NCBI GenBank assembly: GCA_964612895.1
Contig: CAZTFL010000001.1
Location: 265,043 to 329,042 of the forward strand
Direction of reading: 5' to 3'
Origin: Candidatus Woesearchaeota archaeon
Lineage (GTDB): Archaea; Nanobdellota; Nanobdellia; Pacearchaeales; GW2011-AR1
DNA length: 64,000 bases
Shown here one piece after another: positions 7,074 through 31,815 of the stretch. The position numbers and the translations under genes are program-made. Numbering within the stretch: the stretch's first letter is position 1; each line of letters opens with the position of its first letter. The notes below the pieces were generated by a model. The model searched no databases and was not told the DNA's origin. It saw only the letters and a list, made by a program, of their open reading frames with translations.

Positions 7074-7328
7074 TAATCAATTCATCAAGTAAAGCATTTA
7101 TTTCTCTTAAATTATAAATAATCTGATCAAATAAATCTTCAAAATTATTTTCTTCCATAATTAATCAATATAAAAAAGAATATATAATAAATCGGAAACA
7201 AAAAGTGGATAATTTTTTGGATAAAAAAAGTCTCCGATTTCATTTATAAGGATATAATCTCATCACATCATGACAAAAAAATGTTATGTTTGTGGAGATT
7301 TTATTATTGAAGGAGAAATCTGTACTAC

Positions 7329-7724
7329 TTGTTTAAATGTATTAAAATTAAAATATCCAAACAAAAAAGAATTAGAATCCATTTTACAATGGCACAAAAT
7401 AAATGCCGAATTAAATCAAGAAAGTTGACTATAACTCCAATATTATTATTGTTGTTTTTGGTTTTACAATTAAGTTTGGTTTTAGCATCAAGTGAATCAG
7501 ACTTTGAAGAGATTTTACAACCATTAATGACAATTTATAACTTGGTGAAATATGCAGCAACAATAATAGCAGGACTAGTAATGTTATTTGCTGGAATAAC
7601 TTATATCTCTAGTGGATCAGATCCTGGGAAACGAGAAAAAGCAAAAAATATGGTTATGTACGTTATTATTGGTTTAGCAGTAATTTGGGCTGCACCTTTT
7701 ATAGTTGACTTAATATTGAAATGA
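7329..7724 (+). CDS. VirB2/TrbC-like or CedA1-like small pilin/membrane protein. True start is probably the internal Met at about 7389 (MAQNKCRIKSRKLTITPILLLL).
   Basis: A signal peptide ending LVLASSE is followed by two hydrophobic helices. The loop motif YISSGSDPGKREKAKNMV is shared with the N-terminus of the ORF at 9039-9860. Confidence 0.5.
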   Translation: MFKCIKIKISKQKRIRIHFTMAQNKCRIKSRKLTITPILLLLFLVLQLSLVLASSESDFEEILQPLMTIYNLVKYAATIIAGLVMLFAGITYISSGSDPGKREKAKNMVMYVIIGLAVIWAAPFIVDLILK

Positions 7725-9860: not shown

Positions 9861-9861
9861 A

Positions 9862-12817: not shown

Positions 12818-13285
12818 TTAATAATTAGTTTTATCCTTTTTTTGTTCCCAAATTTTAAATGGAATTAAAGCATCTTCTCTATCTAACCACTTAATCTTAA
12901 CTTGTTTCTTATTAGCCTTTCCACTTAAAACATCATAAATAAATTTATCATCAAAACCAATTTTTTCAGCATCTTTTCTAGTACATCCATAGTATACTTT
13001 TTTCATTTTAGCCCAATGAATTGCAGAAAAGCACATTGGACAAGACTCACCAGAAGAATAAATTTCACAATCAGATAAATCAAATCTACCTAATTTTTTA
13101 CAAGCTTTTTTAATTGCAATCATCTCAGCATGATTTGTAGGATCATTTGTCTTTATAACCCTATTATGAGCTTTTGAGATTACTTTTCCATCTTTAACAA
13201 TAACTGCACCAAAAGGTCCACCATCTTTTTTTTGAATTCCTTTCTTAGCTTCTTCTATTGCTAATTGCATAAATTTATTTTTCAT
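12818..13285 (-). CDS. Zinc-dependent cytidine/deoxycytidylate-family deaminase (TadA/GuaD-like)
   Basis: HAEMIAI and SCPMCFSAI match the H(A/C)E ... PCxxC zinc-binding signature. The protein is 155 aa. Confidence 0.7.
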   Translation of the reverse strand: MKNKFMQLAIEEAKKGIQKKDGGPFGAVIVKDGKVISKAHNRVIKTNDPTNHAEMIAIKKACKKLGRFDLSDCEIYSSGESCPMCFSAIHWAKMKKVYYGCTRKDAEKIGFDDKFIYDVLSGKANKKQVKIKWLDREDALIPFKIWEQKKDKTNY

Positions 13286-13286
13286 T

Positions 13287-14225
13287 TTAACTCACCATAT
13301 TATCAACTTCAATTTTATGATTTTCCAAAATTGCTTTACCCAATGTTTGTTCAATCTTTTCATTGATTTCTTTTAATTCTTCTCTATTTTTTACTAAAAA
13401 AGCATAATATAAATTAACATAACCTACAGCTTTTATACAAATAATAAATCTTGGGTCTTGTTCAATAAGTTTCATAAAATTTTCTAATTCTTTTACATAA
13501 GAAGGATCTATTCTAGATATATAAGTATATTCTGTAAATCCTACTTTTTTCAAATCAATGATTGGGTAACATCTCTCAATAATATCTCTTTTTTTAAGAG
13601 AGTTTATTCTCCTCATAATTGAACTAGCAGTTGTATTTAATTTATTTGCTAATTCAACTGTAGAAAGTTTAGAATTATTTTTTAATAATTTTATTAAATT
13701 TAAATCTTCTTTTTTTAATTCAACACTTTCGGGACTACCTTTAATATCAACTTTTGCTTTTTTCTTAGGATTTAAGATTCTAGCAAAATAAGTTTTTGAG
13801 TTAACACTTTGAAAAGATAAATAATTTTTTATTTTATCTTTAAAATTAATTAATATTTTTGTTTGTATTTCGTCATATCTTTCAATTGTTTTAGTCCATA
13901 CAGAAATATAAAGTTTCCATTGGCTTACTTCATGAAGCATATAACAACAACTAACTTCTTCAATAGATGTTATTTTTTTCAAATATTTATTAACATCAAT
14001 AAAAGAAACTCCTTGTATGTCTAAATAAATAGAATGTCTACTAAAACCTAATTTTGGATAATTAATATTAACTGTACATTTTTTAATAATTTTTCTTTCT
14101 TCCATCTTTTTGATACGATAATTAACTGTTTGTTGTGGAAGTTGTACTGATTTTGATATCTTAGAAATGGGTTGACGGCAGTCTTGTAATAATTCAAATA
14201 AAATTAATTTGTCTTTTTCATCCAT
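13287..14225 (-). CDS. Lrp/AsnC-family transcriptional regulator with two tandem HTH+RAM modules
   Basis: There are two AsnC-type HTH segments. One is ISKISKSVQLPQQTVNYRIKKMEERKII and the other is LSTVELANKLNTTASSIMRRINSLKKRDII. The gene abuts the deaminase gene with a 1-nt gap. Confidence 0.65.
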   Translation of the reverse strand: MDEKDKLILFELLQDCRQPISKISKSVQLPQQTVNYRIKKMEERKIIKKCTVNINYPKLGFSRHSIYLDIQGVSFIDVNKYLKKITSIEEVSCCYMLHEVSQWKLYISVWTKTIERYDEIQTKILINFKDKIKNYLSFQSVNSKTYFARILNPKKKAKVDIKGSPESVELKKEDLNLIKLLKNNSKLSTVELANKLNTTASSIMRRINSLKKRDIIERCYPIIDLKKVGFTEYTYISRIDPSYVKELENFMKLIEQDPRFIICIKAVGYVNLYYAFLVKNREELKEINEKIEQTLGKAILENHKIEVDNMVS

Positions 14226-16076: not shown

Positions 16077-17906
16077 TTATTTAATAACCGGATAAAAACC
16101 TATCCTTCCAGAGATATTATTTCCAGTAAAATGTATATGATTTAATTCATCCCTGTCTTTAGAAGGCTGTTTATTATCTAAGATAATCACTTGAACATTG
16201 TTTTCAATACAGAACTGGGATATAGACTCAAAAAAATCTTCTTGAATAGTTTCAGACTTAAGATCTTCGGGTTTGATTGTGTCTTTCTCTTTATAGGTTG
16301 TTAAGGGAGAATCAATAACTATAAATCGTGGGTGAGGTTTATCGTTTTTTAAACAATATCTAAGTAGCCCCAACATAAATGCAGCTAGATATATTGCCCT
16401 ATAACCCTTTCCATGATTTCTTCTTTCATCCCCATTGATAATAATATCATTTTTATTTGGATCAAATAAAACTTCTTTCACGCCTAACTTCCAAGAGTTC
16501 AGGAAATATTTGACGTCTTCAACAAAAGTATCATAGACTTCTTTTTCTAAGATTCTTTCTTCGCCCTTAACATTTCTTGTTTGTAATTTATTTTGGTAAT
16601 ATAAAATATCCTGATTTATCTTAGCAACCTCTTCTTTCAATAAGTCCAGTTGTATTGTTTGATCCTTTATCTTTAAAAAATCTTTTAATTGATTTTCATT
16701 TATTTGTTTTACGGGGGCAATACTGTTTTTTATTTTTATATTAATTTTATCAAAAGAGACTTTTATCAATTCATGGTTTTTGAGCACTTCTTCTTTTTCA
16801 TTTTTCAAATTAATTAATACTTCAGAGAGTTCTTTCTTTTTTATCAAGATTTTATCAGCTTCTTTTTGAATAGATTCCATAAAAGCATTGTCTAGTTTTG
16901 AAACATCGGCTCCGAATATTTTACCACATACGGGGCAGTTTTTATCCGCCAATTGATCAATTAATTGACCGCCTTCATTAATAAAATCTAATCGTTTAAG
17001 ATCGCTATCATAGTGTTTATCAAGTAAAATAAATTTTCTTTCAAGGTTATCTAATTGGTTTATTTTACTCCTTATAACATCAATTTCCTTCCAAATTTTT
17101 TGTCTTTTTTCCTCTTCAATAAAAAGCTCTTTCTGATTTTCGTTTAAAATAGATGTCAACTCTTCTATCTTTAAATTGATAGAATCTACCTTAATCTCTT
17201 TTAACCTATTATCTAAATTAAAAATAATCTTCTCTTTTTCGGATAATTCTTCTTTAAGCAATTCTATTTTGGAGTTTACTCTAATCTTAAATGTTTTAAT
17301 AGGTTCGATAGTTTCAAGTTCATCATCATCTCTCCCAGATAAAAGTAGTTTAAATAAAGAGGTCTCCATAGTTTTCTCAGTATACTGCCCGGTGTAAATA
17401 GGAGAACTCTCTGAAATTACCTCCTCTTCATTAACTAAGCATATTTTTCTTAAATTTCTAAAACTAATTTCTTGTTTTTCATTAGAATCATTTTTCTTAA
17501 GTTGACATCCCTTTAGATTTATTAAATTCAATAAAAAACCAGATATATTCTCTTCCCTACTACTCCCTTTTTTAGCTTTTAATTCTTTTGAAGCTATTTT
17601 ACCATATTCTTCTACTGAACCTTCAATGAATTCTATTTTAGAATCAAACAAATCTCGAATAATAGTATACTCTTTACCCTCATAGGTTACTAAATTTAAC
17701 AACATCTTTTCATATCCTGTAGATTCTTGTATTGGTTTTGGTTTAGACTGGGCTCCAAGCATAAAGTCCATACACTGAAAAATATATGACTTGCCTGTGT
17801 TAGATGGACCCGAGATTACATTTAGAGAATTGTCTAACTTTATTATGGTTGGCTCTTTGTCTTTTCCGATAACTCTTAATTCTTTAAAATAAAATCCTTT
17901 ATACAT
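16077..17906 (-). CDS. SMC/Rad50-like ABC ATPase, Lamassu LmuB / ABC-3C ATPase-like (DUF3732-like)
   Basis: N-terminal LNVISGPSNTGKSYIFQCMDFMLG matches Walker A of the SMC/RecF type. A long coiled-coil middle carries CPVCGK, which is Zn-hook-like. C-terminal PRFIVIDSPLTTYKE is Walker B-like. The protein is 609 aa. Confidence 0.55.
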   Translation of the reverse strand: MYKGFYFKELRVIGKDKEPTIIKLDNSLNVISGPSNTGKSYIFQCMDFMLGAQSKPKPIQESTGYEKMLLNLVTYEGKEYTIIRDLFDSKIEFIEGSVEEYGKIASKELKAKKGSSREENISGFLLNLINLKGCQLKKNDSNEKQEISFRNLRKICLVNEEEVISESSPIYTGQYTEKTMETSLFKLLLSGRDDDELETIEPIKTFKIRVNSKIELLKEELSEKEKIIFNLDNRLKEIKVDSINLKIEELTSILNENQKELFIEEEKRQKIWKEIDVIRSKINQLDNLERKFILLDKHYDSDLKRLDFINEGGQLIDQLADKNCPVCGKIFGADVSKLDNAFMESIQKEADKILIKKKELSEVLINLKNEKEEVLKNHELIKVSFDKINIKIKNSIAPVKQINENQLKDFLKIKDQTIQLDLLKEEVAKINQDILYYQNKLQTRNVKGEERILEKEVYDTFVEDVKYFLNSWKLGVKEVLFDPNKNDIIINGDERRNHGKGYRAIYLAAFMLGLLRYCLKNDKPHPRFIVIDSPLTTYKEKDTIKPEDLKSETIQEDFFESISQFCIENNVQVIILDNKQPSKDRDELNHIHFTGNNISGRIGFYPVIK

Positions 17907-18368
17907 TTAAATTACCTGAGAAAACTCTTCCCCCCATTTAGTTAAATTACTATTGATAAATTTAGATATTTTTATATCATTTTCTTTTCCAAAATAATCG
18001 CATATCCATTTAGCTGTTTCATCAATATTCCTCGAATAATCGCTTTCAAAATAACTAAGGAAATTCAAAGTATCTTTATTTTTAGAATAGTAAACACCAT
18101 TTGTTTTATATTTAACAGAAATTACTCCTTTTGAAAGGAGTGTCTGGATAGCTTCTTTGTAATTTTCTCTGAGAACAATTATTTCACAAGATCTATTAGG
18201 CAAATCAGGATGTAAACTACTTGGACCTCCAGAAATATCTGAAGAATGAAGCATTAAATAATTGTAATAAAGAATTCTTTGAAGATCTAAATCTTTATTG
18301 GAATGTTTTAGTAAAAATAGAAGCCTGATAGCTAATTCTACCCTTCCATTAAAAATTACTTCTTCCAT
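17907..18368 (-). CDS. Small middle component (LmuC / ABC-3C MC-like)
   Basis: 153-aa ORF sandwiched between the effector and the ATPase. It overlaps the effector by 13 nt and abuts the ATPase. The gene order matches three-component Lamassu/ABC-3C systems. Confidence 0.4.
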   Translation of the reverse strand: MEEVIFNGRVELAIRLLFLLKHSNKDLDLQRILYYNYLMLHSSDISGGPSSLHPDLPNRSCEIIVLRENYKEAIQTLLSKGVISVKYKTNGVYYSKNKDTLNFLSYFESDYSRNIDETAKWICDYFGKENDIKISKFINSNLTKWGEEFSQVI

Positions 18369-19423
18369 TTTATCTCCAATTTTTCATTAGCTAAATGATG
18401 ACAAATTCCCTTTTTATCAGAATTAGAAGCTTGACTAGAAACCAGGGTCGGTCTTATTTGAACAAGAGAAGAATGACTTAAAACCTTTTTTAATCTTTCA
18501 AATCCATTTTGGCAATCTTCTCTAATTTTTTCTAACACTCCTTCATAGATATCGTTTTTTAATGAGTTAAACTGCTCCATCTCCGGATCTATATCTCTTG
18601 AGAACTGTTCAAGAGATTCTGCTTCATAAAAATAAGCTCTTTGTTCCTCAAAATCTTTTTTTAAATCGCTGTTTTTATCCAGTTCTGAGGAAGAAAAAGC
18701 ATCTTTTCCAAGATAATCTGCATAAGCATCAAGTATCTTTTTTATATAAACTGCCTCGCTATTCATAATTTCTTCAGGAGGTCTTTTTGATATTGGACGA
18801 GGTTTAGATAATATTCCAAAGTGGTATGAAAAACATGGCGTCTCTTTGTATTGTTCAATAAAGTCCTTTATATCTAAAAGTTTAAACACTGAAAAATCAA
18901 ACGATTCTAAATAACTTTTTAGTTCATCTGTCAATGGAATACCTGATGTACTTATAGATTTACAACAAGAATTGTCCCAGTTAGAAATCAACTCTTTTTT
19001 GAGATTTTCTTTTGAGTTCAAAATATCCCATGCATTTGGAGTGACTCCCTTTGGAGAAAATATATAATTTTCTTTTGGAGGCGTTATACTTCCTTGTTTG
19101 CAATAATAACAAATTTTCCCAACTTCAATCAAAATCTCTTTTTTTGATAATTTCTTAGCATATTTCTTACATTGATAATTTATCCAGGTTCCATCATTTT
19201 CATAAACACCAATATCTCGTCCCTTATCTCCTGGACCCCCTATCCTAATCACTTTCACATCTTTATTTTGTTTCTTCTTAAATAAATAAAAAGCCCATTG
19301 TTCAATAATTCGTTCAAACTCTTCGTCACCAACTATCTCTAAAAATTTTATTGGATCCAAAGAGTTTGATCTAAGGATTATTCCGCCTTGAGGCATTACC
19401 GGTTCAACAAGGTCGTTTATCAT
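18356..19423 (-). CDS. Effector with N-terminal Mrr-like PD-(D/E)xK restriction-endonuclease domain (LmuA / ABC-3C effector-like)
   Basis: The segment VIRIGGPGDKGRDIGVYENDGTWINYQCKKY fits a D ... E-x-D ... QCK arrangement typical of Mrr-type REase cores. It is first in a three-gene operon. Confidence 0.5.
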   Translation of the reverse strand: MINDLVEPVMPQGGIILRSNSLDPIKFLEIVGDEEFERIIEQWAFYLFKKKQNKDVKVIRIGGPGDKGRDIGVYENDGTWINYQCKKYAKKLSKKEILIEVGKICYYCKQGSITPPKENYIFSPKGVTPNAWDILNSKENLKKELISNWDNSCCKSISTSGIPLTDELKSYLESFDFSVFKLLDIKDFIEQYKETPCFSYHFGILSKPRPISKRPPEEIMNSEAVYIKKILDAYADYLGKDAFSSSELDKNSDLKKDFEEQRAYFYEAESLEQFSRDIDPEMEQFNSLKNDIYEGVLEKIREDCQNGFERLKKVLSHSSLVQIRPTLVSSQASNSDKKGICHHLANEKLEIKWKK

Positions 19424-19535
19424 AATTTTCTAAAGAAACCCTTATTTTAAAAGATTCGCATTATTTTGAGAAGCAAATAATACAGGAGTAATACGGATTA
19501 AATAACTTTTTAAAAATCAGACTCATTAATTAATT

Positions 19536-21023
19536 ATGGTGGAAAAAATAACCCTTTCAGAGATGGAATCATACCTTTGGGGTGCTGCCAATATCTTAAG
19601 GGGACCTGTTGATGCTTCAGATTTTAAGGCCTATATTTTTCCCCTACTTTTTTTTAAGCGTATTTCAGATATTTATGATGAAGAATATGAAGATGCTCTA
19701 GAAGAATCGGGAGGAGATGAAGAATATGCCTCTTTTCCTGAGCAACATGATTATATAATTCCTAGTGGAGCTCATTGGAAGGATGTGAGAGAAAAAACTA
19801 CCAACGTTGGAGAAGCAATTCAATATTCCTTTAGAGAAATTGAGAAGGCAAATCCAGATCAACTTTATGGTATTTTTGGAGATGTTAATTGGACCAATAA
19901 AGAAAGATTGCCTGATGAACTTTTGATTAACTTAGTAGAACATTTTTCAAGCAAAACCTTATCTAAGAAAAATGCAGAGCATGACCTTTTAGGACAAGCA
20001 TATGAATTTTTAATTAAAAAATTTGCAGATTTAACTAACCGAAAAGCAGGTGAGTTCTATACTCCAAGGACAATAGTTCATTTAATGGGTTCAATATTAA
20101 AGCCCAAAGAAACAGATAGTATTTACGATCCTGCATGCGGTTCGGGAGGTATGCTTTTAGAGGCATATCATTATGTTAAGGAAAGAAATGGGGACTTTAG
20201 AACATTAAGGATTTATGGGCAAGAAAAGAATTTGACTACTTCTGCAATAGCTCGGATAAACTTATTTTTACATGGAATGAAGGATTTTCAAATCATTAGA
20301 GGAGATACTTTAAGAAATCCTGCTTTTAGAGAGGGGGATAGACTAGCTCAGTTTGATGTAGTAATCGCTAATCCGCCATTTTCTTTAAAGAATTGGGGAT
20401 ACGAAAATTGGGCACAAGATCCTTTTGGCAGAAATTTTGCAGGAGTTCCGCCAGAGAGCTATGGTGATTTTGCATGGGTTCAGCATATGGTAAAATCAAT
20501 GGCCCATCCAAACGGTAGGATGGCAGTTATTCTTCCGCATGGGGCTTTGTTTAGAAGTGGGGCTGAGGCAAGAATTAGAAAAGAATTGATTGATAATGAT
20601 TTAGTTGAGACAATTATTGGATTAGGACCAAACTTATTTTATGGGACTGGAATAAGTGCATGCATTTTAGTTTTGAAACTAAACAAAGAGAAAAATAAAA
20701 AGAATAAAATTTATTTTATCGATGCTTCTAATCAATATCAAAAAGGCAGAAATCAAAATTATTTTTTAGAAGAACATACAAATAATGTTTTATCATGGTA
20801 TGAATCTTATAAAGATAAAGAAAATATCAGCCGTGTTGTCGATGCTTCAGAAATTGCCGAGAATGATTATAATCTCAACTTACTTAGATATATAAAAAAG
20901 ATAGATGAAGAAGATAGGGTTAGTTTAGAGCAAGTCTATAAATCTCTTTTAGATGAAGAAGATAAATTCAATAAATCACAAAAAGAAATGAGTAAAATTT
21001 TGGAGAAATATAATTTAATATGA
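19536..21023 (+). CDS. hsdM: Type I restriction-modification methyltransferase subunit HsdM (copy 1)
   Basis: The HsdM N-domain reads LWGAANILRG. SAM motif I is DPACGSGGML. Catalytic motif is VVIANPPFSLKNW (NPPF). The protein is 495 aa. Confidence 0.85.
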   Translation: MVEKITLSEMESYLWGAANILRGPVDASDFKAYIFPLLFFKRISDIYDEEYEDALEESGGDEEYASFPEQHDYIIPSGAHWKDVREKTTNVGEAIQYSFREIEKANPDQLYGIFGDVNWTNKERLPDELLINLVEHFSSKTLSKKNAEHDLLGQAYEFLIKKFADLTNRKAGEFYTPRTIVHLMGSILKPKETDSIYDPACGSGGMLLEAYHYVKERNGDFRTLRIYGQEKNLTTSAIARINLFLHGMKDFQIIRGDTLRNPAFREGDRLAQFDVVIANPPFSLKNWGYENWAQDPFGRNFAGVPPESYGDFAWVQHMVKSMAHPNGRMAVILPHGALFRSGAEARIRKELIDNDLVETIIGLGPNLFYGTGISACILVLKLNKEKNKKNKIYFIDASNQYQKGRNQNYFLEEHTNNVLSWYESYKDKENISRVVDASEIAENDYNLNLLRYIKKIDEEDRVSLEQVYKSLLDEEDKFNKSQKEMSKILEKYNLI

Positions 21024-22543
21024 GCAAAGCAAAACAAGAGATAGTCGAAGGAGCAATAAGTCAGCAAGAATTAGAGGGATATCTTTGGGGTGCTGCGAAT
21101 TTACTTAGAGGAGTAATTGATCCAGGAGATTATAAAAGCGTTATTTTTCCATTAATGTTCTTTAAAAGAATATCTGATGTGTATGATGAAGAATATGAAG
21201 ATGCATTGAAAGAGTCCGATGGCGATGAAGATTATGCAAACTATCCCGAACAGCATGAATTCCAAATACCAAAAAACTCTCATTGGAAGGATGTAAGAGA
21301 AGTCAGCAAGGATGTAGGAAAGGCAATTAAAAATGCAATGGACAATATTGAAAAATCTAATCAAGACAAATTAATGGGCATTTTTGGAGATACTAATTGG
21401 ACCAACAAAGACAGATTAAGTGACTCAATTCTTACAAGTTTAATAGAGCACTTTTCAACTTTAAATCTCACAATAAAAAACGTTCCTCAAGATGAATTTG
21501 GAACTGCATATGAATTCTTGATTAAGAAGTTTGCGGATGATAGCGGACATACTGCTGCAGAATTTTATACTAATAGAACAGTTGTTAAGATATTAGCTAT
21601 GATTTTAGATCCAAAGCCAGGCGAATCTATTTACGACCCTACTTGCGGTTCAGGAGGAATGTTGCTTAATTCTGCCTTGTTAGTTAAAGAAAAGGGAGAG
21701 GAATATAGAAACTTAAAATTATATGGGCAGGAAATAAATATGATCACCTCAGGTATTGCGAGGATGAATATGTTTATTCATGGCTTTAATGATTTTCATG
21801 TTGCAAGAGGAGATACATTAAGAGACCCTGCTTTTGTTGAAAATGATCAATTAAAAAAGTTTGATATTGTTATCGCCAATCCGCCTTATTCAATTAGCAA
21901 ATGGAATCAAGAAGCGTGGAAACATGATCCTTGGGGAAGAAATAAATATGGGCTTCCACCAAAAGGCAATGCTGATTATGCTTTCTTTCAGCACATAATT
22001 TGTTCAATGAAAGATAAGACTGGAAGATGCGGTGTTTTATTTCCTCACGGAATTTTAGAAAGGGATGCAGAGCAGGAAATGAGAAAAAGAATTATTGAAG
22101 AAGATTTAATTGATTGTGTTGTTGGACTTGGAAAAGATTTATTCTATAATTCTTCAATGGAGTCTTGTTTAGTCTTTTGTAAAACTAAAAAAGATCCTGC
22201 GAAAAAGGGAAAGATATTATTTATTGATGCAAGAGATGAACTTACTCGAAAACAAACTCAGAGCTTTTTAGAAAAGCACCATATTGATAAAATCTTCAAA
22301 GCATATAAAGAATACAAAGATGTTGAGGGTTTTGCTAAGATTGTAAGCAATGAGGATGTTTTAAGTAACAATGGAAACCTAAACATTAAATTGTATGTTG
22401 AGAATCATCGACACCTTAACATGGATATTATTACAACTCCATTAAAGAAGTTTGTCGATGATTGGAAAAAAAGCTCTAAAGAACTTGAAGAGTCTACTAA
22501 AGAAATGAATAAAGTTTTGAAGGAGGTAATAAATGGAAAATAA
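21020..22543 (+). CDS. hsdM: Type I restriction-modification methyltransferase subunit HsdM (copy 2, paralogue)
   Basis: Same architecture as copy 1. Motifs are LWGAANLLRG, DPTCGSGGML and IVIANPPYSISKW. It overlaps copy 1 by 4 nt. Confidence 0.85.
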   Translation: MSKAKQEIVEGAISQQELEGYLWGAANLLRGVIDPGDYKSVIFPLMFFKRISDVYDEEYEDALKESDGDEDYANYPEQHEFQIPKNSHWKDVREVSKDVGKAIKNAMDNIEKSNQDKLMGIFGDTNWTNKDRLSDSILTSLIEHFSTLNLTIKNVPQDEFGTAYEFLIKKFADDSGHTAAEFYTNRTVVKILAMILDPKPGESIYDPTCGSGGMLLNSALLVKEKGEEYRNLKLYGQEINMITSGIARMNMFIHGFNDFHVARGDTLRDPAFVENDQLKKFDIVIANPPYSISKWNQEAWKHDPWGRNKYGLPPKGNADYAFFQHIICSMKDKTGRCGVLFPHGILERDAEQEMRKRIIEEDLIDCVVGLGKDLFYNSSMESCLVFCKTKKDPAKKGKILFIDARDELTRKQTQSFLEKHHIDKIFKAYKEYKDVEGFAKIVSNEDVLSNNGNLNIKLYVENHRHLNMDIITTPLKKFVDDWKKSSKELEESTKEMNKVLKEVINGK

Positions 22544-23765
22544 AATTCCTAAGGGTTGGGAAAAAATAAAGCTCGGAGATGTTGTTGAGCATGTAAAAGA
22601 TAAAGTTCATAATCGAGAAGAGTGGACCTTTGATAGATATATTGGAGGAGAACATTTTGAGGAGGGAGAGATAAGAATTACTAAATCTGCACCAATTGAA
22701 GGCAATGAAGGAGTAATCGGCTCTGCGTTTCATATGAGATTTAAGCCAGGACAAGTTCTTTATGTTACAAGAAATCCAAGACTTAGAAAAGGAGGCATGG
22801 TTGATTTTGAGGGAGTTTGTTCTAATGTTACATTCACACTCCAAGCTAATGAAGAAAAACTATCTCAAAAGCTTCTGCCATTTATAATTCAAACAGAGAG
22901 CTTCACAAAACATGCATGCAATAGTGCTCATGGTTCTACAAATCCTTTCTTAAATTGGAAAGACATCGCAAGTTATGATTTATTACTCCCGCCATTAAAC
23001 GAACAAAAAAAGATTGCAGAAGTTTTGTGGGCTGTGGAAGAAGCCATAAAAAATAATGAAGGTGTTATTAAAAAATTTGAATTATTTAGACTTAAAACTA
23101 TGAAAGAAGTCTTAACAAAGGGAATTGGAAAACAAAATTATATTGAATCAGAATTGGGATTAATTCCTAAAGGTTGGAATATTAAAAAGATTTCAGATAT
23201 ATGCAATATTAGAAGGGGGGCTTCTCCAAGACCGATAAATGATAAAAGGTTTTTTTCCAATTCTGGACCGGGCTGGATTAGAATAGCAGATGTAACTCCA
23301 GTATATAAATATCTTAAAAAAACTACACAATATTTATCTGAATTAGGTGCATCAAAGAGTGTTCGGGTTATGAAGGGAGATCTAATTATGAGTATATGTG
23401 CAACAATCGGGAAACCAGTTATAATTGATATGGATGCATGCATACATGACGGCTTTGTATTGTTCTCCGGTATAAAAGAAAAAGAAATTTTAATGGAATA
23501 TTTATTTTATGTGTTACTTTTTAAAGAGAAAGAGTTTTTATCAAATAAACAGGTTGGGACGCAAGGGAACCTAAATACTTCTATTGTGGGAAATATAAAA
23601 TTAGGTATTCCTCCAAGCATAGATGAACAAAAAAAGATTGTAGACGTATTGGTAAAAATTGATAATGGACTTTTTAGCTATAAGGAGAATCTTAAGTCTT
23701 TAAAAGCCCTAAGGCAAAAACTTATGAATGAGCTTTTTTTGGGTAAAATAAGATTGGAGAAATAA
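22533..23765 (+). CDS. hsdS: Type I R-M specificity subunit HsdS
   Basis: 410 aa with two target-recognition-domain halves separated by conserved helical spacers. It overlaps the hsdM2 stop and abuts hsdR. Confidence 0.8.
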   Translation: MENKIPKGWEKIKLGDVVEHVKDKVHNREEWTFDRYIGGEHFEEGEIRITKSAPIEGNEGVIGSAFHMRFKPGQVLYVTRNPRLRKGGMVDFEGVCSNVTFTLQANEEKLSQKLLPFIIQTESFTKHACNSAHGSTNPFLNWKDIASYDLLLPPLNEQKKIAEVLWAVEEAIKNNEGVIKKFELFRLKTMKEVLTKGIGKQNYIESELGLIPKGWNIKKISDICNIRRGASPRPINDKRFFSNSGPGWIRIADVTPVYKYLKKTTQYLSELGASKSVRVMKGDLIMSICATIGKPVIIDMDACIHDGFVLFSGIKEKEILMEYLFYVLLFKEKEFLSNKQVGTQGNLNTSIVGNIKLGIPPSIDEQKKIVDVLVKIDNGLFSYKENLKSLKALRQKLMNELFLGKIRLEK

Positions 23766-23766
23766 A

Positions 23767-26655
23767 ATGTTTAATGAACAAAACACCGTTGAAGATTATG
23801 TAAGAGACCTTTTAGTTAAACACGGTTGGACTTTCGTTCCAAAAGAAAAACTTCCTCGTCAAGAAACAGATGTCTTAGTTGAGAAACAAGTTAGAGATGC
23901 CCTTATTAGATTAAATCCTTCAATTGAAGAAGATCATGATAGAGCGGATGAAGTTTTGTATAAATTAAAAGCCATATTGGTGTCTGCAAGAGGGACAGGG
24001 GTTGTTAAGACTAATGAAGAGTTTACTCGATGGATTAGAAATGAAAAAACCATGCCTTTTGGAGAAAATGGCGAGCACGTATCTATAAAATTAATTGATT
24101 TTGATGACTTAAAAAATAATGAATTTATTGTTACAACACAATATACTTTTATTTCTGGACAGAATAGAAGAGCAGATTTAGTTCTTTTAGTAAATGGAAT
24201 ACCTTTAGTAATCGGAGAATGTAAAACCCCTGTTAGACCTGCAATTTCATGGGTTGATGGGGCGATTCAACTCGAAGAATATCAAAATTCCTTACCTACA
24301 TTATTTGTCCCTAATTTATTCTGCTTTGCTACAGATGGTAAAGAATACAGAGTTGGTTCAATTAAACTACCAATTGAAAAATGGCAACCTTGGAAAAAAA
24401 CAACAGATACGGTTTTTGAGAAATTAACCGAATTAAAAAATTCTGTTGATTTAATGTTAAAACCTGAGATTGTTCTTGATTTATTATTAAACTTTACTTT
24501 ATTTAGCACAGATAAAACTGGACAAAGTATTAAAGTTCTTTGCCGATACCAGCAATATGAAGCTACAAAACAACTTATACAAAGAGTTATTGATGGCAAA
24601 GTTAGAAAAGGATTAATTTGGCATTTTCAAGGTTCAGGAAAATCCTTATTAATGGTTTATGCTGCACAACTTTTAAGAAAAGAACCCAAACTAAAAAGCC
24701 CGACAGTTATTGTTGTCGTAGATAGAATCGATTTAAATTCTCAAATAAGCGGAACATTTAGTGCTTCACAAGTTCCAAATATAGTAGTTGCTGAATCTCG
24801 TGAAGAATTAAAAAAATTATTAAAACAAGATACTAGAAAAATAATTATAACAACAATTCATAAATTTGCAGAGGCTAATGGGATTTTAAACGATCGAGAG
24901 AATATAATTGTTTTAGTTGATGAGGCACATAGAACTCAGGAGGGGGATTTGGGTAAAAATATGAGAGATTCTTTACCAAATGCATTTTTATTTGGATTAA
25001 CAGGAACTCCAATTAATAAGAGGGACAGAAATACTTTCTGGGCTTTTGGAGCTGAGCAAGATAAAAATGGTTATATGAATCGATACTCATTTGAGCAATC
25101 TTTAACAGATAAGGCAACACTTCCGATTTATTTTGAACCTCGACCCGTTGAATTAAGAATTGATAAAAAGGCAATTGATGATGCCTTCGATGAAATAACT
25201 GATGCCCTTTCAGATAATGATAAAGCAGAACTATCTAAACGTGCTGCGAAAATGGGGGCTTTAATTAAATCTAAAGATAGAATTAAGGAAGTTTGTAAAA
25301 ATATGGTAGAACATTACAAAGAATATATTGAGCCTAATAATTTCAAAGGACAAATTGTTGTTTTTGATAGGGATGCGTGTGATTTGTATAAAAAAGAAAT
25401 TGACAAATTATTATCTCCAGAAGAAACTGCAGTAGTTATGACTGTTAATACAAAAGAAACTGAATGGAAAAAGAAATATTTCTTAAGCGACGATGATATG
25501 GAAAAATTGCTTAATAGGTTTAGAGATCCAAAAGATCCTCTTAAATTACTCATCGTTACATCAAAGCTTCTTACTGGTTTTGATGCTCCTATAAATCAAG
25601 TTATGTATTTAGACAAACCAATGAAGGACCACACATTATTGCAAGCAATCTGTAGAGTTAATCGACCATATAATGGAAAAAATAATGGTTTAATTGTAGA
25701 CTATTTAGGAATTTTTGATAATGTTTCTAAATCATTAAATTTTGATATAAAAGATGTTCAAAAAGTAATTTCCAATATTAGTAATCTAAGAGATGAAGTC
25801 CCTAATGCTATAAAAAAATGTTTATCCCATTTTAAGAAAATAGATAGATCTATTGATGGATACGAGGGTCTTTTACTCGCACAGGATTGTTTACCTACAA
25901 ATGAAAAGAAAGATGAATTCGCTGCAGATTATTCTTATTTGAATCGACATTGGGAAGCAGTATCTCCTGATAAGTTCTTGGATAACTATCAGAAAGATTA
26001 CAAATGGTTAACTCAAATTTACGAATCTTTACAGCCTCCAAGTGGAAATGGTCGATTAATCTGGCATACTTTAGGAGCAAAGACAATCGAGCTCATCAAT
26101 AAAAATGTAACTGTTCAAACAATTAGAGATGATTTAGAGCCATTAATCATGGATTCAAGTGTTCTTGGAAGAATTAATGAAAAAGATGCAAGAATAAAAG
26201 CAAAAGAACTTGAGATGCGTATTGTCTGGAATTTACATAAACATGCAGGCGATCCTAGATTTAAGGAGCTTGGTAAGAGATTGGAAGAGTTGAAAGAAAA
26301 ACATTATAAGAATGTAATTAATAGTTTAACCTTCTTAAAAGAACTTTTAGAAATTGCTAAGGAAACCGTTAAGCTTGAAAGAGAAACAGAGGCAGAACCG
26401 ATCGACAGCTCAAGAGAAGCATTAAGTAAACTCTTTTTAGAATGCAAAGTTGAAACTACTCCAAAAATTATAGAAAAAATAGTAGAAGAAATTGATGGGG
26501 TCGTAAAGGTTACGAGATTTGATGGGTGGCAATGGACATTATCTGGAGAAAAAGAAATAAAGATGGCTTTAAGAAGAACCCTTTTGAAATATAAACTTCA
26601 CAAAGAACAAGATTTGTTTGATAAAGCATATGATTACATAAGGGAGCATTATTAA
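23767..26655 (+). CDS. hsdR: Type I R-M restriction subunit HsdR (SF2 helicase/nuclease)
   Basis: Motif I is IWHFQGSGKSLL. The DEAH box is VLVDEAHRTQEG. The N-terminal Res-III-type nuclease region carries DLVLLVNGIPLVIGECK. The protein is 962 aa. Confidence 0.85.
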   Translation: MFNEQNTVEDYVRDLLVKHGWTFVPKEKLPRQETDVLVEKQVRDALIRLNPSIEEDHDRADEVLYKLKAILVSARGTGVVKTNEEFTRWIRNEKTMPFGENGEHVSIKLIDFDDLKNNEFIVTTQYTFISGQNRRADLVLLVNGIPLVIGECKTPVRPAISWVDGAIQLEEYQNSLPTLFVPNLFCFATDGKEYRVGSIKLPIEKWQPWKKTTDTVFEKLTELKNSVDLMLKPEIVLDLLLNFTLFSTDKTGQSIKVLCRYQQYEATKQLIQRVIDGKVRKGLIWHFQGSGKSLLMVYAAQLLRKEPKLKSPTVIVVVDRIDLNSQISGTFSASQVPNIVVAESREELKKLLKQDTRKIIITTIHKFAEANGILNDRENIIVLVDEAHRTQEGDLGKNMRDSLPNAFLFGLTGTPINKRDRNTFWAFGAEQDKNGYMNRYSFEQSLTDKATLPIYFEPRPVELRIDKKAIDDAFDEITDALSDNDKAELSKRAAKMGALIKSKDRIKEVCKNMVEHYKEYIEPNNFKGQIVVFDRDACDLYKKEIDKLLSPEETAVVMTVNTKETEWKKKYFLSDDDMEKLLNRFRDPKDPLKLLIVTSKLLTGFDAPINQVMYLDKPMKDHTLLQAICRVNRPYNGKNNGLIVDYLGIFDNVSKSLNFDIKDVQKVISNISNLRDEVPNAIKKCLSHFKKIDRSIDGYEGLLLAQDCLPTNEKKDEFAADYSYLNRHWEAVSPDKFLDNYQKDYKWLTQIYESLQPPSGNGRLIWHTLGAKTIELINKNVTVQTIRDDLEPLIMDSSVLGRINEKDARIKAKELEMRIVWNLHKHAGDPRFKELGKRLEELKEKHYKNVINSLTFLKELLEIAKETVKLERETEAEPIDSSREALSKLFLECKVETTPKIIEKIVEEIDGVVKVTRFDGWQWTLSGEKEIKMALRRTLLKYKLHKEQDLFDKAYDYIREHY

Positions 26656-26700: not shown

Positions 26701-27759
26701 TTAATCTATTTTATTTAATTCTTTAATAAAAGAAATTAATATATCATATGCTTCTAAAAACTTATTATAATCCTTTCTTTCATACAACATTTCTGAAGGA
26801 ATATTCCCAGAATCTTGTCTTGAAGAGAAATCTTTATTATGCATAACAGTATTTCTAAAATAAATAATCTTTTGTATCCCTTTTTTTAATTCTTTTTTTG
26901 AAGTATATTGTAAAGATATTGCCTTTTCACTCAGTGAATAATATAGTAAATCTCTTAATTCTATATGTTGAAATGGAGGTAGTTTTTGTTCATAGATATT
27001 TTTTTCTAATTTTTCTAATTTTTCTTTATTTGAACTTTCACGATTTTTTAAAAATAGTAATATATCCTTATCCTCTTTTTTTATTAGAATTAATTTCTCT
27101 CTTAATAATCTTTCAAATACATTTAAAATAGAATAAAAATAAATATATGCCGTTGAGCTAATTAAATCACAAAAGTGTATCACTCCTACTAACTTTTTAT
27201 TATCTAATACGAATAACAAATCTCGCTTTTTTGTTTTGTCTATTAGTTCTGATAAATTAGATTTAGCTGAGATTGTATCCTCTTTTTTAAACTTTTTTTT
27301 AGTGAATCTTTTTGTTTGTTTATTAAAAAACATATAATATTTAGTAGAATTTTTTATTGGTACTTTCTCTATATCTCTTCTCAAACAAAATTCTTTTGAT
27401 TCTTCTTTGTTCTTAAAAAAGAATAACTCTTTGACCATTAATTCTTCTACAAGAATCATAGATCTTATTTGAGATAATATTTTATCTTTTCCTCCTTCAG
27501 CATAAAATTTAACTCTTACACCACCATTAATCTTCTTTGTTCCAAATTTTTGTATATCATTTTTAATAATTTGGTAATATTTTACTTTATTCTTAAAATC
27601 TTTAGAATATCTTGAACCAATCCATGCACAATAACCAACATTTAAACCAAAAGCTTCTCCAAGTTCCTCAAGACCTTTTCTTTTAGCATCTTCTTCATTT
27701 ATATTTTTTAAAATAACAGTTTTGTCTATAAATTTAATTTTAATATCTTCCGGATTCAT
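26701..27759 (-). CDS. Abi-like abortive-infection protein with C-terminal HEPN motif
   Basis: C-terminal KIIYFRNTVMHNK fits the HEPN R-x4-H signature. The architecture resembles the Abi_2/AbiD-F family. It sits between the Type I R-M system and other nuclease genes. Confidence 0.45.
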   Translation of the reverse strand: MNPEDIKIKFIDKTVILKNINEEDAKRKGLEELGEAFGLNVGYCAWIGSRYSKDFKNKVKYYQIIKNDIQKFGTKKINGGVRVKFYAEGGKDKILSQIRSMILVEELMVKELFFFKNKEESKEFCLRRDIEKVPIKNSTKYYMFFNKQTKRFTKKKFKKEDTISAKSNLSELIDKTKKRDLLFVLDNKKLVGVIHFCDLISSTAYIYFYSILNVFERLLREKLILIKKEDKDILLFLKNRESSNKEKLEKLEKNIYEQKLPPFQHIELRDLLYYSLSEKAISLQYTSKKELKKGIQKIIYFRNTVMHNKDFSSRQDSGNIPSEMLYERKDYNKFLEAYDILISFIKELNKID

Positions 27760-27819
27760 AATAATAAAACTAATCTTATCTTTAAATAATTTTTTCTATA
27801 CATTTCTTTTTTTAATCTC

Positions 27820-28338
27820 TTACTTTATTCTTTTTTCCCATTTTTCCCTTTCAAGATCTTCCAATTTTATTCCTTTTTCTTTAGCTTTTTTTCTCATAAG
27901 TTCAATATACTCTAAATAATGAGAAAGATACCCGAAAAAGGGGTAATCTTCTGAATTTATTGTATCTTTTGGTATATCGTTTTGTTTAAAACATTTCTTT
28001 TTTCTTAGTTCATTTATAGTGATTACATCAAAAGGTACATATCTTTCTGGAAATTTTATTGTAAGTATAAATGAAGCAATAGATATGGTAACTCCATTAA
28101 TATTACATAATTCTTTTATTGCATCTTCTGTTTTATCTCTTTTTGCTAATTTAAAAGCCTTTCTTGTTATTTCTTTAATCTTTTCTTCAGAGTCTAAAAA
28201 GTTTTTTTTAGGTTTAAAGTTTTTAAGTTTTAAGAGATCAGAACTAGACCATTCTTTTTTATTCCTTATTTGCTTCGCTATTTCTTCAAATTTTTTTCTT
28301 GCATTATCCATTTTTTCTTTGTTAGTTACTTTTACCAT
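27820..28338 (-). CDS. Hypothetical protein, co-operonic with the DUF2779-like gene
   Basis: 172 aa with no motifs. It overlaps the upstream gene's stop by 17 nt. Confidence 0.35.
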   Translation of the reverse strand: MVKVTNKEKMDNARKKFEEIAKQIRNKKEWSSSDLLKLKNFKPKKNFLDSEEKIKEITRKAFKLAKRDKTEDAIKELCNINGVTISIASFILTIKFPERYVPFDVITINELRKKKCFKQNDIPKDTINSEDYPFFGYLSHYLEYIELMRKKAKEKGIKLEDLEREKWEKRIK

Positions 28339-29821
28339 TTAAAACCTCCCACAATCCTTCAACAATCTTAACTTCTGCTAATGTGTCTAATTCACAATAT
28401 TTTTCTAAGGCATTTCTCATTTCTTGTTTTTCTTTAGGATTAATGTCATTAAAAGTAATTCTTTCCCATTGATATGATGCTTCATCTCCTTTTTTTATAT
28501 GCTCTAAATTTTTATAACTTAAATCAGAAATTACTGGAAGAACATATTTGATAGAGCAAGAGCCTTTTTGCTCGGGATCATAATAATAGAAATTCCTGAA
28601 AACATCCCATAAATCTTTGATTCTTGGCAGGATATTCTCCTCGTACCATTCTCTAAATTCTGGAAAAGCAATTGCTGATTCATTCAGAACTCCCTTTTCA
28701 AATCCTTGATTATACACAAGTATACTTCCTTTATCTCCTAAATTCTCTTTTAATGATTGCATAAATTTAAGTCTTGGATCATTTGTTCCATCAGCTAAAA
28801 AAGAAATATGTTTTAATTCAGCATTTTTACTTTCTTGAATATGTAAACTAAATTGAAAAGGTATCCTTTGATAAGGTTTCATTCCATCAAATTTAGGTAA
28901 AATAGGGTTTATTGTCTCAAAGTCTAAATAATAAATAGGATATTGTAAATTTTTCAAGAAGTTATCAATTTCTAATTTATTGATATGAATTCCATTATCA
29001 TAAACTAATCTTTTTTGAATTTCTTGTTTATCATTTAACTTAAAACTTTCAGGAACATCTTTCATAGTAATATAACCTTTTTTGTATAATTCTACTGCTT
29101 TTTTCTTTAATATTCTATAAAACTCAAAAATATTATCTTTAGGTAAAGAACTCATAAATTCATCAAGACATAAATTATCATATTCTATTGTTAAAACATC
29201 ATCAACAGAGAATTCTGGTTCAGGTCCTTTAATAATATTAAACATTTTATCTATGTTCTTTTCTAATTCTTCTTCAAAAGGTTTTATTTTATCAGTTATA
29301 TTTGTTTGAACAAATAATTCAGAAGGTTCAATTTGCCCATCTTTTATATATTCATTATTAATATGCATTAAAAAACACTTTCTTATTTTCAAACCTGCTT
29401 TTTCATAAACATATTTTTGAAAAGCAACATCATGTAAATTAATATCTTTTACTTTTGTAGCAGATTTTACTTCAATAATATCCCATTCATCTTTTCCTAC
29501 AGGATTAAGAATATCTGCTCTTGAATATATAATTCCTTCTTTTAATATTGCTTGAATCCCAAATTCAAATAAAGGACGTCTCATTTCTAAAGCATTAATC
29601 CCAAGTCTTAGATTTTCTTGATAATCTTCTCCAGGAATTTTAATTCCTCCTTCAAATAAAGTAGTTGCTAATTCTCCTACTAAAGTTCCATCATCAAACT
29701 TCTTTTGTTCAATTTCATTAGGTTCAGGGATTCTCTCTTTATCGTTTTTAGTAATCCACAAGAATTTAGGACATTGTATTCCTAAAAGATAGTTTGATTT
29801 TGTTAAAATTATAGGTTTCAT
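28322..29821 (-). CDS. DUF2779-like protein (predicted RecB-like PD-(D/E)xK nuclease superfamily), tentative
   Basis: The N-terminal LTKSNYLLGIQCPKFLWI resembles the conserved N-terminal signature I recall for DUF2779 proteins. 499 aa. This is a from-memory family assignment. Confidence 0.4.
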   Translation of the reverse strand: MKPIILTKSNYLLGIQCPKFLWITKNDKERIPEPNEIEQKKFDDGTLVGELATTLFEGGIKIPGEDYQENLRLGINALEMRRPLFEFGIQAILKEGIIYSRADILNPVGKDEWDIIEVKSATKVKDINLHDVAFQKYVYEKAGLKIRKCFLMHINNEYIKDGQIEPSELFVQTNITDKIKPFEEELEKNIDKMFNIIKGPEPEFSVDDVLTIEYDNLCLDEFMSSLPKDNIFEFYRILKKKAVELYKKGYITMKDVPESFKLNDKQEIQKRLVYDNGIHINKLEIDNFLKNLQYPIYYLDFETINPILPKFDGMKPYQRIPFQFSLHIQESKNAELKHISFLADGTNDPRLKFMQSLKENLGDKGSILVYNQGFEKGVLNESAIAFPEFREWYEENILPRIKDLWDVFRNFYYYDPEQKGSCSIKYVLPVISDLSYKNLEHIKKGDEASYQWERITFNDINPKEKQEMRNALEKYCELDTLAEVKIVEGLWEVLNGKSN

Positions 29822-31283: not shown

Positions 31284-31592
31284 AAATAAATAATCAATTT
31301 AAACTTTAAATAAATTTAGAAATTAAAAAGTATATTCTTTTATGAGTATTAAAACCTATAATGTTATTACAATGTAACCACCAAATTAAATATATTAATT
31401 GTCTTTTAATCTCTAAAAATAATATTTTCTACTTTTTAACTTTTATTCAAAAAGTGGGATAAATTTTATAAAAGTACAAAAAAGGAAAAGATATCTTAAG
31501 TGATATTCAAATAAATGATGAATCTAAAATAGAATTCTTTTTAATTAAACAATAAATAAAAATACGCCCATAAAACCCACAAAAGTCCCTAA

Positions 31593-31664
31593 CGCCCAAA
31601 CCGGGAATTGGACCCGGGTCTCGAGCGCGACAGGCTCACGTACTAGCCACTATACTATTTGGGC
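31593..31664 (-). tRNA. tRNA-Asp (anticodon GTC). CCA is not encoded.
   Basis: Hand-folded from the minus strand. Acceptor GCCCAAA pairs with TTTGGGC. D-stem GTAT pairs with GTAC. Anticodon stem TGAGC pairs with GCTCG, with loop CTGTCGC. T-stem CCGGG pairs with CCCGG, with loop TCCAATT. Discriminator is G. Total 72 nt. Confidence 0.85.
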
Positions 31665-31815
31665 ATTTCTTGACTGAAGTTTACTCCCAAATTACTTAAT
31701 CAAGATAATTTTTATTGGTTTTTGACCTTTTTAAGATTTATGTTCACTACTTTTTTTAAGTAATTTTTAATTTCTTTTTTATTATCTAAATTCTTTTAAA
31801 TAATTCGAAATATTA

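What the first reader, a model, noticed from the sequence alone, without database searches (positions are those of the whole stretch)
19536..22543. Type I R-M system with two full-length, overlapping hsdM paralogues
Two complete HsdM genes of 495 and 507 aa each carry the N-terminal domain, SAM motif I (DPACGSGGML in one, DPTCGSGGML in the other), and the catalytic NPPF or NPPY motif. They overlap by 4 nt ahead of a single hsdS and hsdR. Canonical Type I systems have one hsdM, with an M2S1 stoichiometry. A heterodimeric M pair, sub-functionalisation between N6A and N4C chemistries, or an intermediate in system diversification are all possible.
Basis: seen in the sequence. Interest (0 to 1): 0.5.

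Follow-up and report, generated by a model that had tools for sequence, protein, structure and literature searches.

The report
Known m4C/m6A two-methylase Type I system
The two adjacent hsdM genes are real and both intact, but they match an already described kind of Type I restriction-modification system in which one methylase marks adenine and the other cytosine, so this is an ordinary new member of a known group.

Summary
hsdM1 (19536-21023, 495 aa, NPPF) and hsdM2 (21020-22543, 507 aa, NPPY) overlap by ATGA. They are followed by one hsdS (22533-23765) and one hsdR (23767-26655). The two M proteins are 49% identical.

This is not a local duplication or a decaying copy. It is the "non-canonical" m4C/m6A Type I R-M class of Morgan et al. 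2016 (PMC5100572), whose PacII M1M2S structure was solved by Zhu et al. 2022 (PMC9613975, PDB 7VRU). In that class M1 (NPPF) makes m6A, M2 (NPPY) makes m4C, and the methylase is an M1-M2-S heterotrimer.

- The window's M1 and M2 each match best the corresponding PacII chain.
- They are 70% and 67% identical to the M1 and M2 of a Methanohalophilus mahii locus that I take to be the characterised Mma5219I.
- They carry the class-specific active-site residues.
- They fall on opposite sides of a clean M1/M2 split across 82 related loci.
- Both are under strong purifying selection (dN/dS about 0.03).
- The S subunit has the conserved cytosine-type TRD1 (75% identical to that of the M. mahii S) and a variable TRD2.

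At least 584 stretches in the species-genome collection encode an M2 relative. Verdict: new member of a known kind, low interest. Methylation itself was not measured.

The parts
19536..21023 (+). hsdM1, 495 aa. M1-type (A-MTase) subunit, predicted to make m6A. Motifs: AGEFYTPR (nt 20046-20069), motif I DPACGSGGML (20127-20156), motif IV NPPF (20370-20381), pocket loop LFY-GTGIS (20634-20657).
   Evidence: Best PDB match is PacII M1, 7vru_A, at 556 bits against 490 for the M2 chain. It is 70% identical to the M1 of the M. mahii locus. It carries the M1 state at 19 of 24 class-discriminating columns. dN/dS is 0.025 against a close relative.
21020..22543 (+). hsdM2, 507 aa. M2-type (C-MTase) subunit, predicted to make m4C. 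Motifs: Arg30 in LLRG (21101-21112), AAEFYTNR (21554-21577), motif I DPTCGSGGML (21635-21664), motif IV NPPY (21878-21889), PHGILER (22043-22063), pocket loop LFY-NSSME (22139-22162).
   Evidence: Best PDB match is PacII M2, 7vru_B, at 569 bits against 453 for the M1 chain. It is 67% identical to the M2 of the M. mahii locus. It carries the M2 state at 22 of 24 discriminating columns. dN/dS is 0.029.
21020..21023 (+). ATGA overlap of the hsdM1 stop and the hsdM2 start. The translational coupling is inferred.
   Evidence: Sequence. The same 4-nt overlap occurs in 23 of 72 related loci that have both genes.
22533..23765 (+). hsdS, 410 aa. TRD1 (about aa 1-150) is the conserved cytosine-half-site TRD. 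TRD2 (about aa 200-362) is the variable adenine-half-site TRD. The turn motifs are LLLPPL (22980-22997) and LGIPPS (23601-23618).
   Evidence: TRD1 is 75% identical to TRD1 of the M. mahii S and 78% to that of archaeon AR20, while TRD2 is 25%. TRD1 finds 69 hits among the related loci and TRD2 finds 7. The best PDB match of TRD1 is PacII S TRD1, E 2.5e-22. TRD2 is replaced outright in the 95%-identical relative L086.
23767..26655 (+). hsdR, 962 aa. Motifs: nuclease D...E-x-K (ADLVLLVNGIPLVIGECK, 24172-24225), Walker A QGSGKS (24628-24645), DEAH (24919-24930), TGTP (25000-25011), QAICRVNR (25642-25665).
   Evidence: It is 72% identical over its full length to the HsdR of the M. mahii locus.
19424..19535 (.). 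112-bp AT-rich divergent intergenic region between the ABC-3C operon (- strand) and hsdM1. It is the presumed promoter region. A TTTTTAAAAA element lies about 20 nt upstream of the hsdM1 ATG.
   Evidence: Sequence only. The promoter assignment is inference and was not tested.

Best explanation
This is a complete four-gene m4C/m6A ('non-canonical', two-methylase) Type I restriction-modification operon, hsdM1-hsdM2-hsdS-hsdR. By homology to the characterised systems, one M1 (NPPF), one M2 (NPPY) and one S assemble into an asymmetric M1-M2-S methyltransferase. TRD1 of S reads a short cytosine-containing half-site and presents the flipped cytosine to M2, which makes N4-methylcytosine. TRD2 reads the other half-site and M1 makes N6-methyladenine on the opposite strand. 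With HsdR bound, unmethylated sites trigger ATP-driven translocation and cleavage at a distance. Shown here: gene content and order, intact motifs, clade membership of each subunit, purifying selection on both M genes, and the conserved-TRD1/variable-TRD2 pattern. Inferred: the heterotrimer, the m4C and m6A chemistry, restriction activity, and the recognition sequence. My guess for the site is a TCY-like cytosine half-site as in Mma5219I, with probably the same spacer length because the S helical spacers align without gaps. The adenine half-site is unknown.
For: (1) The architecture M1(NPPF) then M2(NPPY) then S then R is the order defined in PMC5100572. (2) Reciprocal best PDB matches: M1 to 7vru_A at 556 against 490 bits, M2 to 7vru_B at 569 against 453 bits. 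(3) The M. mahii locus L003, which I take to be the characterised Mma5219I, has M1 70%, M2 67% and R 72% identical to the window's, and S TRD1 75%. (4) The neighbour-joining tree of 156 M sequences splits cleanly into M1 and M2, with each window protein in its own clade. Each is 55-78% identical to its own class and 45-60% to the other. (5) The published discriminating residues are present. M2 has loop N377-S-S-M380-E381 (PacII NSPME), AAEF F182, N287-P-P-Y290, F375, R30, H177 and R348. M1 has G370-T-G-I-S (PacII GTAIP), E173, F174, NPPF and R405. (6) M1/M2 identity of 49% lies within the published 45-55% range. (7) Against the close relative L086, dN/dS is 0.025 for M1 and 0.029 for M2 at dS of about 0.9-1.0. 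(8) TRD1 is conserved across the family and TRD2 is hypervariable, as published. (9) Of 74 related loci with enough upstream DNA, 72 have an intact M1 and 2 a fragmented one. This agrees with the published remark that M2 is never found alone.
Against: No methylation or restriction data exist for this organism, so the chemistry is inferred from 51-70% identical characterised homologues. The window's M2 differs from PacII M2 at three positions: F345 to E347, P377 to S379, and the minor-groove Arg R410 to Q412. The M. mahii M2 shares E at 345 and S at 377 and also lacks the Arg at 410 (it has T), so if that locus is Mma5219I these are not disabling. Mma5219I did behave differently from the other three systems tested: the M1 catalytic mutant abolished both methylations. 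My equation of locus L003 with Mma5219I rests on the organism and the architecture, not on an accession given in the paper (one search found none).
Confidence: 0.9

Rival explanations
1. One of the two hsdM genes is a decaying duplicate with no function, and the system works as a canonical M2S1 enzyme.
For: Canonical Type I systems need only one M gene. The window's M2 has an unusual F-to-E change in the conserved PHG-x-LFR motif.
Against: Both ORFs are full length with all motifs present. The window's M1 departs from its clade at 12 of 172 highly conserved columns and M2 at 7 of 179. Almost all of these are conservative changes or are shared with the M. mahii and AR20 proteins. dN/dS is 0.025 and 0.029. 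The pair is conserved in at least 72 loci from many phyla.
Confidence: 0.02
2. A heterodimeric M pair in which both subunits make m6A, so that the asymmetry serves assembly or HsdR docking rather than a second chemistry.
For: Both proteins carry N-P-P-aromatic motif IV, which is typical of m6A enzymes, and annotation pipelines call both N6 adenine methylases. The window's M2 sub-branch differs from PacII M2 at a few pocket-adjacent positions.
Against: In all four systems tested, mutating M2 NPPY abolished or strongly reduced m4C only, and M1 mutants lost m6A. The crystal structure shows cytosine in the M2 pocket. The window's M2 keeps the pocket-narrowing Asn377 and Met380 and the aromatic cage. 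Its nearest characterised relative, Mma5219I, makes m4C at TCY.
Confidence: 0.05
3. A recent, lineage-specific tandem duplication caught in the act of diversifying.
For: The genes are adjacent, overlapping and paralogous.
Against: Each paralogue is far closer (up to 78%) to its orthologues in archaea and many bacterial phyla than to its neighbour (49%). The tree shows a clean bipartition, and within-locus M1/M2 identity is a uniform 48-55% in 73 loci. The duplication therefore predates the spread of the family.
Confidence: 0.02

Closest known systems
Mma5219I (Methanohalophilus mahii DSM 5219), a characterised m4C/m6A Type I system recognising TCY-N6-TCG (Morgan et al. 2016, PMC5100572)
   Same: The M. 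mahii locus has the same M1-M2-S-R order with the same 4-nt M1/M2 overlap. M1 is 70%, M2 67% and R 72% identical, and S TRD1 is 75% identical. It shares the sub-branch substitutions F345E and P377S in M2, and its M2 likewise lacks the Arg at the R410-equivalent position.
   Different: S TRD2 is only about 25% identical, so the adenine half-site must differ. One of the three positions equivalent to the PacII TRD1 base contacts differs (Val99 here, Thr in M. mahii). The flanking genes are unrelated.
PacII (Pseudomonas alcaligenes), CCC-N5-RTTGY. M1M2S crystal structures 7VRU/7VS4 (Zhu et al. 2022, PMC9613975)
   Same: The catalytic and pocket residues of both subunits are conserved. M1 is 52% and M2 51% identical to the corresponding chain, and these are reciprocal best matches. 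S TRD1 is homologous.
   Different: In PacII the two M genes flank S and R rather than overlapping. The TRD1 base-contact residues R76 and H94 are Asn and Val here, so CCC recognition is unlikely. M2 R410 is Gln here.
The system of archaeon GW2011_AR20 (CP010426.1), uncharacterised
   Same: It is the closest genome-collection relative. M1 is 70%, M2 76%, R 73% and TRD1 78% identical, with the same gene order.
   Different: Its TRD2 is different and its S is shorter (382 aa). There is no shared flanking synteny.
Canonical single-M Type I systems (EcoR124I, EcoKI; M2S1)
   Same: The HsdM_N + N6_Mtase fold, the HsdS with two TRDs, and the HsdR nuclease and motor domains are shared.
   Different: These have a single M gene, make m6A on both strands, and are much more distant: 215 bits to the EcoR124II M chain and 103 bits to the EcoKI M chain, against 556 bits to PacII M1.

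Membership tests
m4C/m6A two-methylase Type I R-M systems (Morgan et al. 2016) | Two hsdM genes next to one hsdS and one hsdR. The NPPF gene (M1) lies upstream of the NPPY gene (M2), M2 lies next to S, and R lies downstream. | tested here: met
.
m4C/m6A two-methylase Type I R-M systems (Morgan et al. 2016) | The two M proteins sort into two separate clades, one member of each per system, and are 45-55% identical to each other. | tested here: met
   They are 49% identical. The tree of 156 sequences gives a clean M1/M2 bipartition. The PDB best matches are reciprocal. Class-diagnostic columns are matched at 19 of 24 (M1) and 22 of 24 (M2).
m4C/m6A two-methylase Type I R-M systems (Morgan et al. 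2016) | The M2 pocket loop is Asn-Ser-Pro-Met-Glu and the M1 loop is Gly-Thr-Ala-Ile-Pro. M2 has the AAEF/NPPY aromatic cage (F180, P287, Y288, F373) and Arg29. | tested here: met
   M2 has N377-S-S-M-E381, F182, P289, Y290, F375 and R30. M1 has G370-T-G-I-S374 (definitions). The Pro-to-Ser change in the loop is shared with the M. mahii M2.
m4C/m6A two-methylase Type I R-M systems (Morgan et al. 2016) | The N-terminal TRD1 of S is the conserved cytosine-recognising TRD. TRD2 is diverse. | tested here: met
   TRD1 is 75% identical to that of the M. mahii S and finds 69 hits among the related loci. TRD2 is 25% identical and finds 7 hits. TRD2 is swapped in the close relative L086 while TRD1 stays about 93% identical.
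m4C/m6A two-methylase Type I R-M systems (Morgan et al. 2016) | Produces m4C on one strand and m6A on the other at a bipartite site. | not testable with these tools
   This needs a SMRT or Nanopore methylome, or heterologous expression.
m4C/m6A two-methylase Type I R-M systems (Morgan et al. 2016) | Active restriction, requiring a functional HsdR. | tested here: inconclusive
   HsdR is full length and has the D...ExK nuclease motif, Walker A, DEAH, TGTP and QxxxRxxR motifs. TIGR00348 scores 547.6 bits against a cut-off of 284.55. Activity itself was not measured.
Canonical M2S1 Type I R-M (families IA-IE) | A single hsdM whose product occupies both positions on S. | tested here: not met
   Two distinct M genes are present, both conserved and both under selection.

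The most novel reading that the evidence does not exclude
The window, archaeon AR20, the MAG locus L004 and the M. mahii locus form a distinct sub-branch of M2 proteins (F345E, and at least in the window and M. mahii P377S and loss of the minor-groove Arg410) with its own TRD1 type. Mma5219I, which I equate with the M. mahii locus, was the one system in which killing M1 catalysis also killed m4C. This sub-branch might therefore use a tighter or different M1-M2 coupling than PacII. With Val instead of Thr at a base-contact-equivalent TRD1 position, the window's system might also read a cytosine half-site not yet catalogued (known so far: CCC, GCC, TCY).
Probability: 0.2. Interest if true: 0.3.

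Novelty: new member of a known kind. Interest (0 to 1): 0.15.

Why it matters
It matters little beyond annotation. Pipelines label both genes 'N-6 adenine methylase' or 'type I M protein', which hides the fact that the downstream gene is predicted to make m4C. Recognising the class predicts an m4C/m6A bipartite methylation motif in this AT-rich organism, whose longest contig is 635 kb. That prediction is useful for interpreting methylome data or for transforming relatives. The sampled loci also show that the class is more widespread (at least 584 matching stretches in the species-genome collection) than the roughly 300 systems counted in 2016.

Tried and rejected
1. Decaying duplicate. I tested it by per-clade conservation, functional-residue mapping and dN/dS against a 95%-identical relative. 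Rejected.
2. Recent local duplication. Rejected by the tree and the identity distributions.
3. By eye, M2's EFYT-N-R (Pro to Asn) and PHGIL-E-R looked like possible lesions. The first is invariant in all 82 M2 proteins and is a clade signature. The second is shared with the M. mahii M2.
4. My first regular expression for the pocket loop matched the wrong LFF-KRISD site. I redid this by alignment.
5. I looked for an att-type repeat of the tRNA-Asp region (31540-31720) elsewhere in the window, to test whether the island is a tRNA-integrated element. No exact repeat of 14 nt or more was found.
6. I looked for shared flanks with the AR20, L004 and M. mahii loci. Only the four R-M genes match.
7. 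I tried to name the source organism through cluster look-up and Pfam scans of neighbouring genes. The only result is an unnamed NCBI contig of 635,481 bp, and the taxon remains unresolved.
8. The paper gives no accession or locus tags for Mma5219I. Equating L003 with it therefore rests on the organism name and the architecture.
9. I did not run structure prediction, fold search, the representative-protein search or further large homology searches, because solved structures of 51-52% identical homologues already exist.
Full report
**Observation**

The ORF list and translations confirm four co-directional genes:
- hsdM1, 19536-21023, 495 aa.
- hsdM2, 21020-22543, 507 aa.
- hsdS, 22533-23765, 410 aa.
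- hsdR, 23767-26655, 962 aa.

The M1 stop and M2 start share ATGA. hsdS overlaps hsdM2 by 11 nt and is preceded by GGAGGT. hsdR starts one base after the hsdS stop.

Both M proteins match Pfam HsdM_N and N6_Mtase over their whole length. S matches Methylase_S with two stretches. R matches HSDR_N, SWI2_SNF2 and T1R_D3. The two M proteins are 49% identical over 491 residues. No other M, S or R copy exists in the window.

**What it is**

A homology search with M2 returned many proteins at 60-80% identity, far closer than its neighbour M1. Three look-ups of such homologues all showed the same gene pair, each with a 4-nt overlap. The three loci were from Methanohalophilus mahii, an Actinomycetota MAG and Methanosarcina sp. 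Mfa9. The two full-length loci continue with S and then R. The MAG contig ends just after M2. The arrangement is therefore a conserved family and not a local accident.

The literature search found the description. Morgan et al. 2016 (PMC5100572) defined a subgroup of Type I systems with two similar methylase subunits. These form an M1-M2-S heterotrimer. M1 carries NPPF and makes m6A. M2 carries NPPY and makes m4C. M1 lies upstream of M2, and M2 lies next to S. Ten systems were characterised by SMRT sequencing, cloning and catalytic mutants. One of them is Mma5219I from M. mahii DSM 5219. Zhu et al. 2022 (PMC9613975) solved PacII M1M2S bound to DNA (PDB 7VRU/7VS4).

**Membership tests run here**

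1. Architecture and motif IV order match the definition.
2. PDB sequence searches give reciprocal best matches. The window's M1 scores 556 bits to the PacII M1 chain and 490 to the M2 chain. The window's M2 scores 569 bits to the PacII M2 chain and 453 to the M1 chain. Canonical HsdMs score 249 bits or less.
I analysed the 80 best plus the earlier loci.
   - Every locus with enough upstream DNA has an M1-type gene upstream of M2: 72 intact and 2 fragmented. The 8 loci without one are cut by a contig end.
   - Nine loci have M2 fused to S, as published for Dac11109IV.
4. An alignment of 156 M proteins gives a neighbour-joining tree with a clean M1/M2 bipartition. Within-locus M1/M2 identity is 48-55%. 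Each window protein sits in its own clade.
5. Of 24 columns that discriminate the two classes, the window's M1 has the M1 state at 19 and the window's M2 has the M2 state at 22.
6. The residues singled out in the two papers are conserved.
   - M2: pocket loop N377-S-S-M380-E381 (PacII NSPME), F182 of AAEF, N287-P-P-Y290, F375, R30, H177 and R348.
   - M1: G370-T-G-I-S374 (PacII GTAIP), E173, F174, NPPF, R340 and R405.
7. The S subunit shows the published pattern.
   - TRD1 is 75% identical to that of the M. mahii S and 78% to that of archaeon AR20. It detects 69 relatives among the loci.
   - TRD2 is about 25% identical and detects 7.

Neither copy is decaying.
- The window's M1 departs from 12 of 172 columns that are at least 95% conserved in its clade. 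The window's M2 departs from 7 of 179. Nearly all are conservative changes.
- The one striking change is Phe to Glu in PHG-x-L-F-R of M2 (E347). It is shared with archaeon AR20, a MAG and the M. mahii M2.
- Against the 95%-identical relative L086, dN/dS is 0.025 for M1 and 0.029 for M2, at dS of about 0.9-1.0. This is as low as for hsdR and the neighbouring genes.
- In that same comparison, S keeps TRD1 (about 93% identical) but has a completely different TRD2. This is classic specificity swapping at the adenine half-site.

**Mechanism**

The following is inferred from the characterised homologues and was not measured here.
- S binds a bipartite site.
- TRD1 positions M2 over a cytosine, which is flipped into the smaller Asn/Met-lined pocket and methylated at N4.
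- TRD2 positions M1 over an adenine on the other strand, which receives N6 methylation.
- HsdR, with intact nuclease and helicase motifs, restricts unmethylated DNA.

The cytosine half-site is most likely TCY-like, given 75% TRD1 identity to the M. mahii S. It is not CCC, because the PacII base-contact positions R76 and H94 are Asn and Val here. One contact-equivalent position also differs from the M. mahii S (Val against Thr). The adenine half-site cannot be predicted.

**Context**

- The operon has a higher GC content (31-34%) than its immediate flanks (about 25%).
- Only the four R-M genes are shared with the AR20, L004 and M. mahii loci. The cassette therefore moves as a unit.
- It sits divergently next to an ABC-3C conflict system. 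That pairing is conserved in L086.
- An integrase and a TraG/VirB4-like ATPase lie upstream.
- The source organism is not identified. The proteins occur on an unnamed NCBI contig of 635 kb.

**Verdict**

The system belongs to a class described in 2016 and structurally resolved in 2022. It is a new member of a known kind and of low interest. Residual uncertainty comes from three points:
- There are no methylation data for this organism.
- The window's M2 belongs to a sub-branch, shared with the M. mahii M2, that differs from PacII at a few pocket-adjacent positions.
- My equation of locus L003 with Mma5219I rests on organism and architecture only.

Noticed in passing
window 16077-19423 (- strand): An ABC-3C (ABC three-component) conflict system lies divergently upstream of hsdM1. 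It comprises a CTD6 effector-domain protein (18356-19423), Middle Component MC2 (17907-18368) and a 609-aa protein with only weak SMC_N/AAA_21 N-terminal matches (16077-17906), presumably the ABC ATPase. The same three genes sit next to the R-M operon in the relative L086 at 89-94% identity and dN/dS 0.02-0.05.
   Followed up: partly
window 1501-12771: Mobile-element-like genes lie upstream: a tyrosine integrase (1501-2661), a Laminin_G_3 protein (2728-5304), a DUF4357 protein (5447-6304) and a TraG/VirB4/HerA-like P-loop ATPase (9862-12771). Together with tRNA-Asp at 31592-31665 (-), this suggests that the R-M and ABC-3C genes may lie on an integrated element. No repeat of the tRNA region of 14 nt or more was found in the window, so the boundaries are unknown.
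   Followed up: partly
window 22533-23765 versus L086 7178-8377: Between two otherwise roughly 95%-identical operons, the hsdS TRD2 is completely replaced (S of 410 against 399 aa) while TRD1 is kept. This is natural swapping of the adenine half-site specificity within this lineage.
   Followed up: yes
L005 9762-13452 (Methanosarcina sp. Mfa9, CP195119.1): An OLD-family ATPase/TOPRIM gene and a UvrD-type helicase gene, a pair resembling the Gabija system, are inserted between hsdS and hsdR of the homologous two-methylase operon.
   Followed up: no
L027, L028, L031, L044, L052, L063, L075, L078, L042 (M2 ORFs longer than 750 aa); L012 and L066: Nine related loci encode M2 fused to the S subunit in one ORF, as published for Dac11109IV. 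Two loci (L012, L066) have the upstream M1 split into fragments, which could be pseudogenes or assembly errors.
   Followed up: partly
window 48604-55137 (- strand): A very large ORF of 2177 aa in a region of higher GC (about 30-33%). It was not examined.
   Followed up: no
window 26701-29821 (- strand): Three convergent genes lie immediately downstream of hsdR: two without any Pfam match (352 aa and 172 aa) and a DUF2779 protein (499 aa). They might be further defence-island cargo.
   Followed up: no
window 58135-60190 (- strand) and 12818-13285 (- strand): A nucleotidyltransferase-domain protein (58135-59046) and a Fic/DOC protein (59375-60190) lie in the right part of the window. A dCMP/cytidine deaminase-family gene sits next to a double-HTH regulator (13287-14225). 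Its coordinates were converted from the gene call in L001.
   Followed up: no
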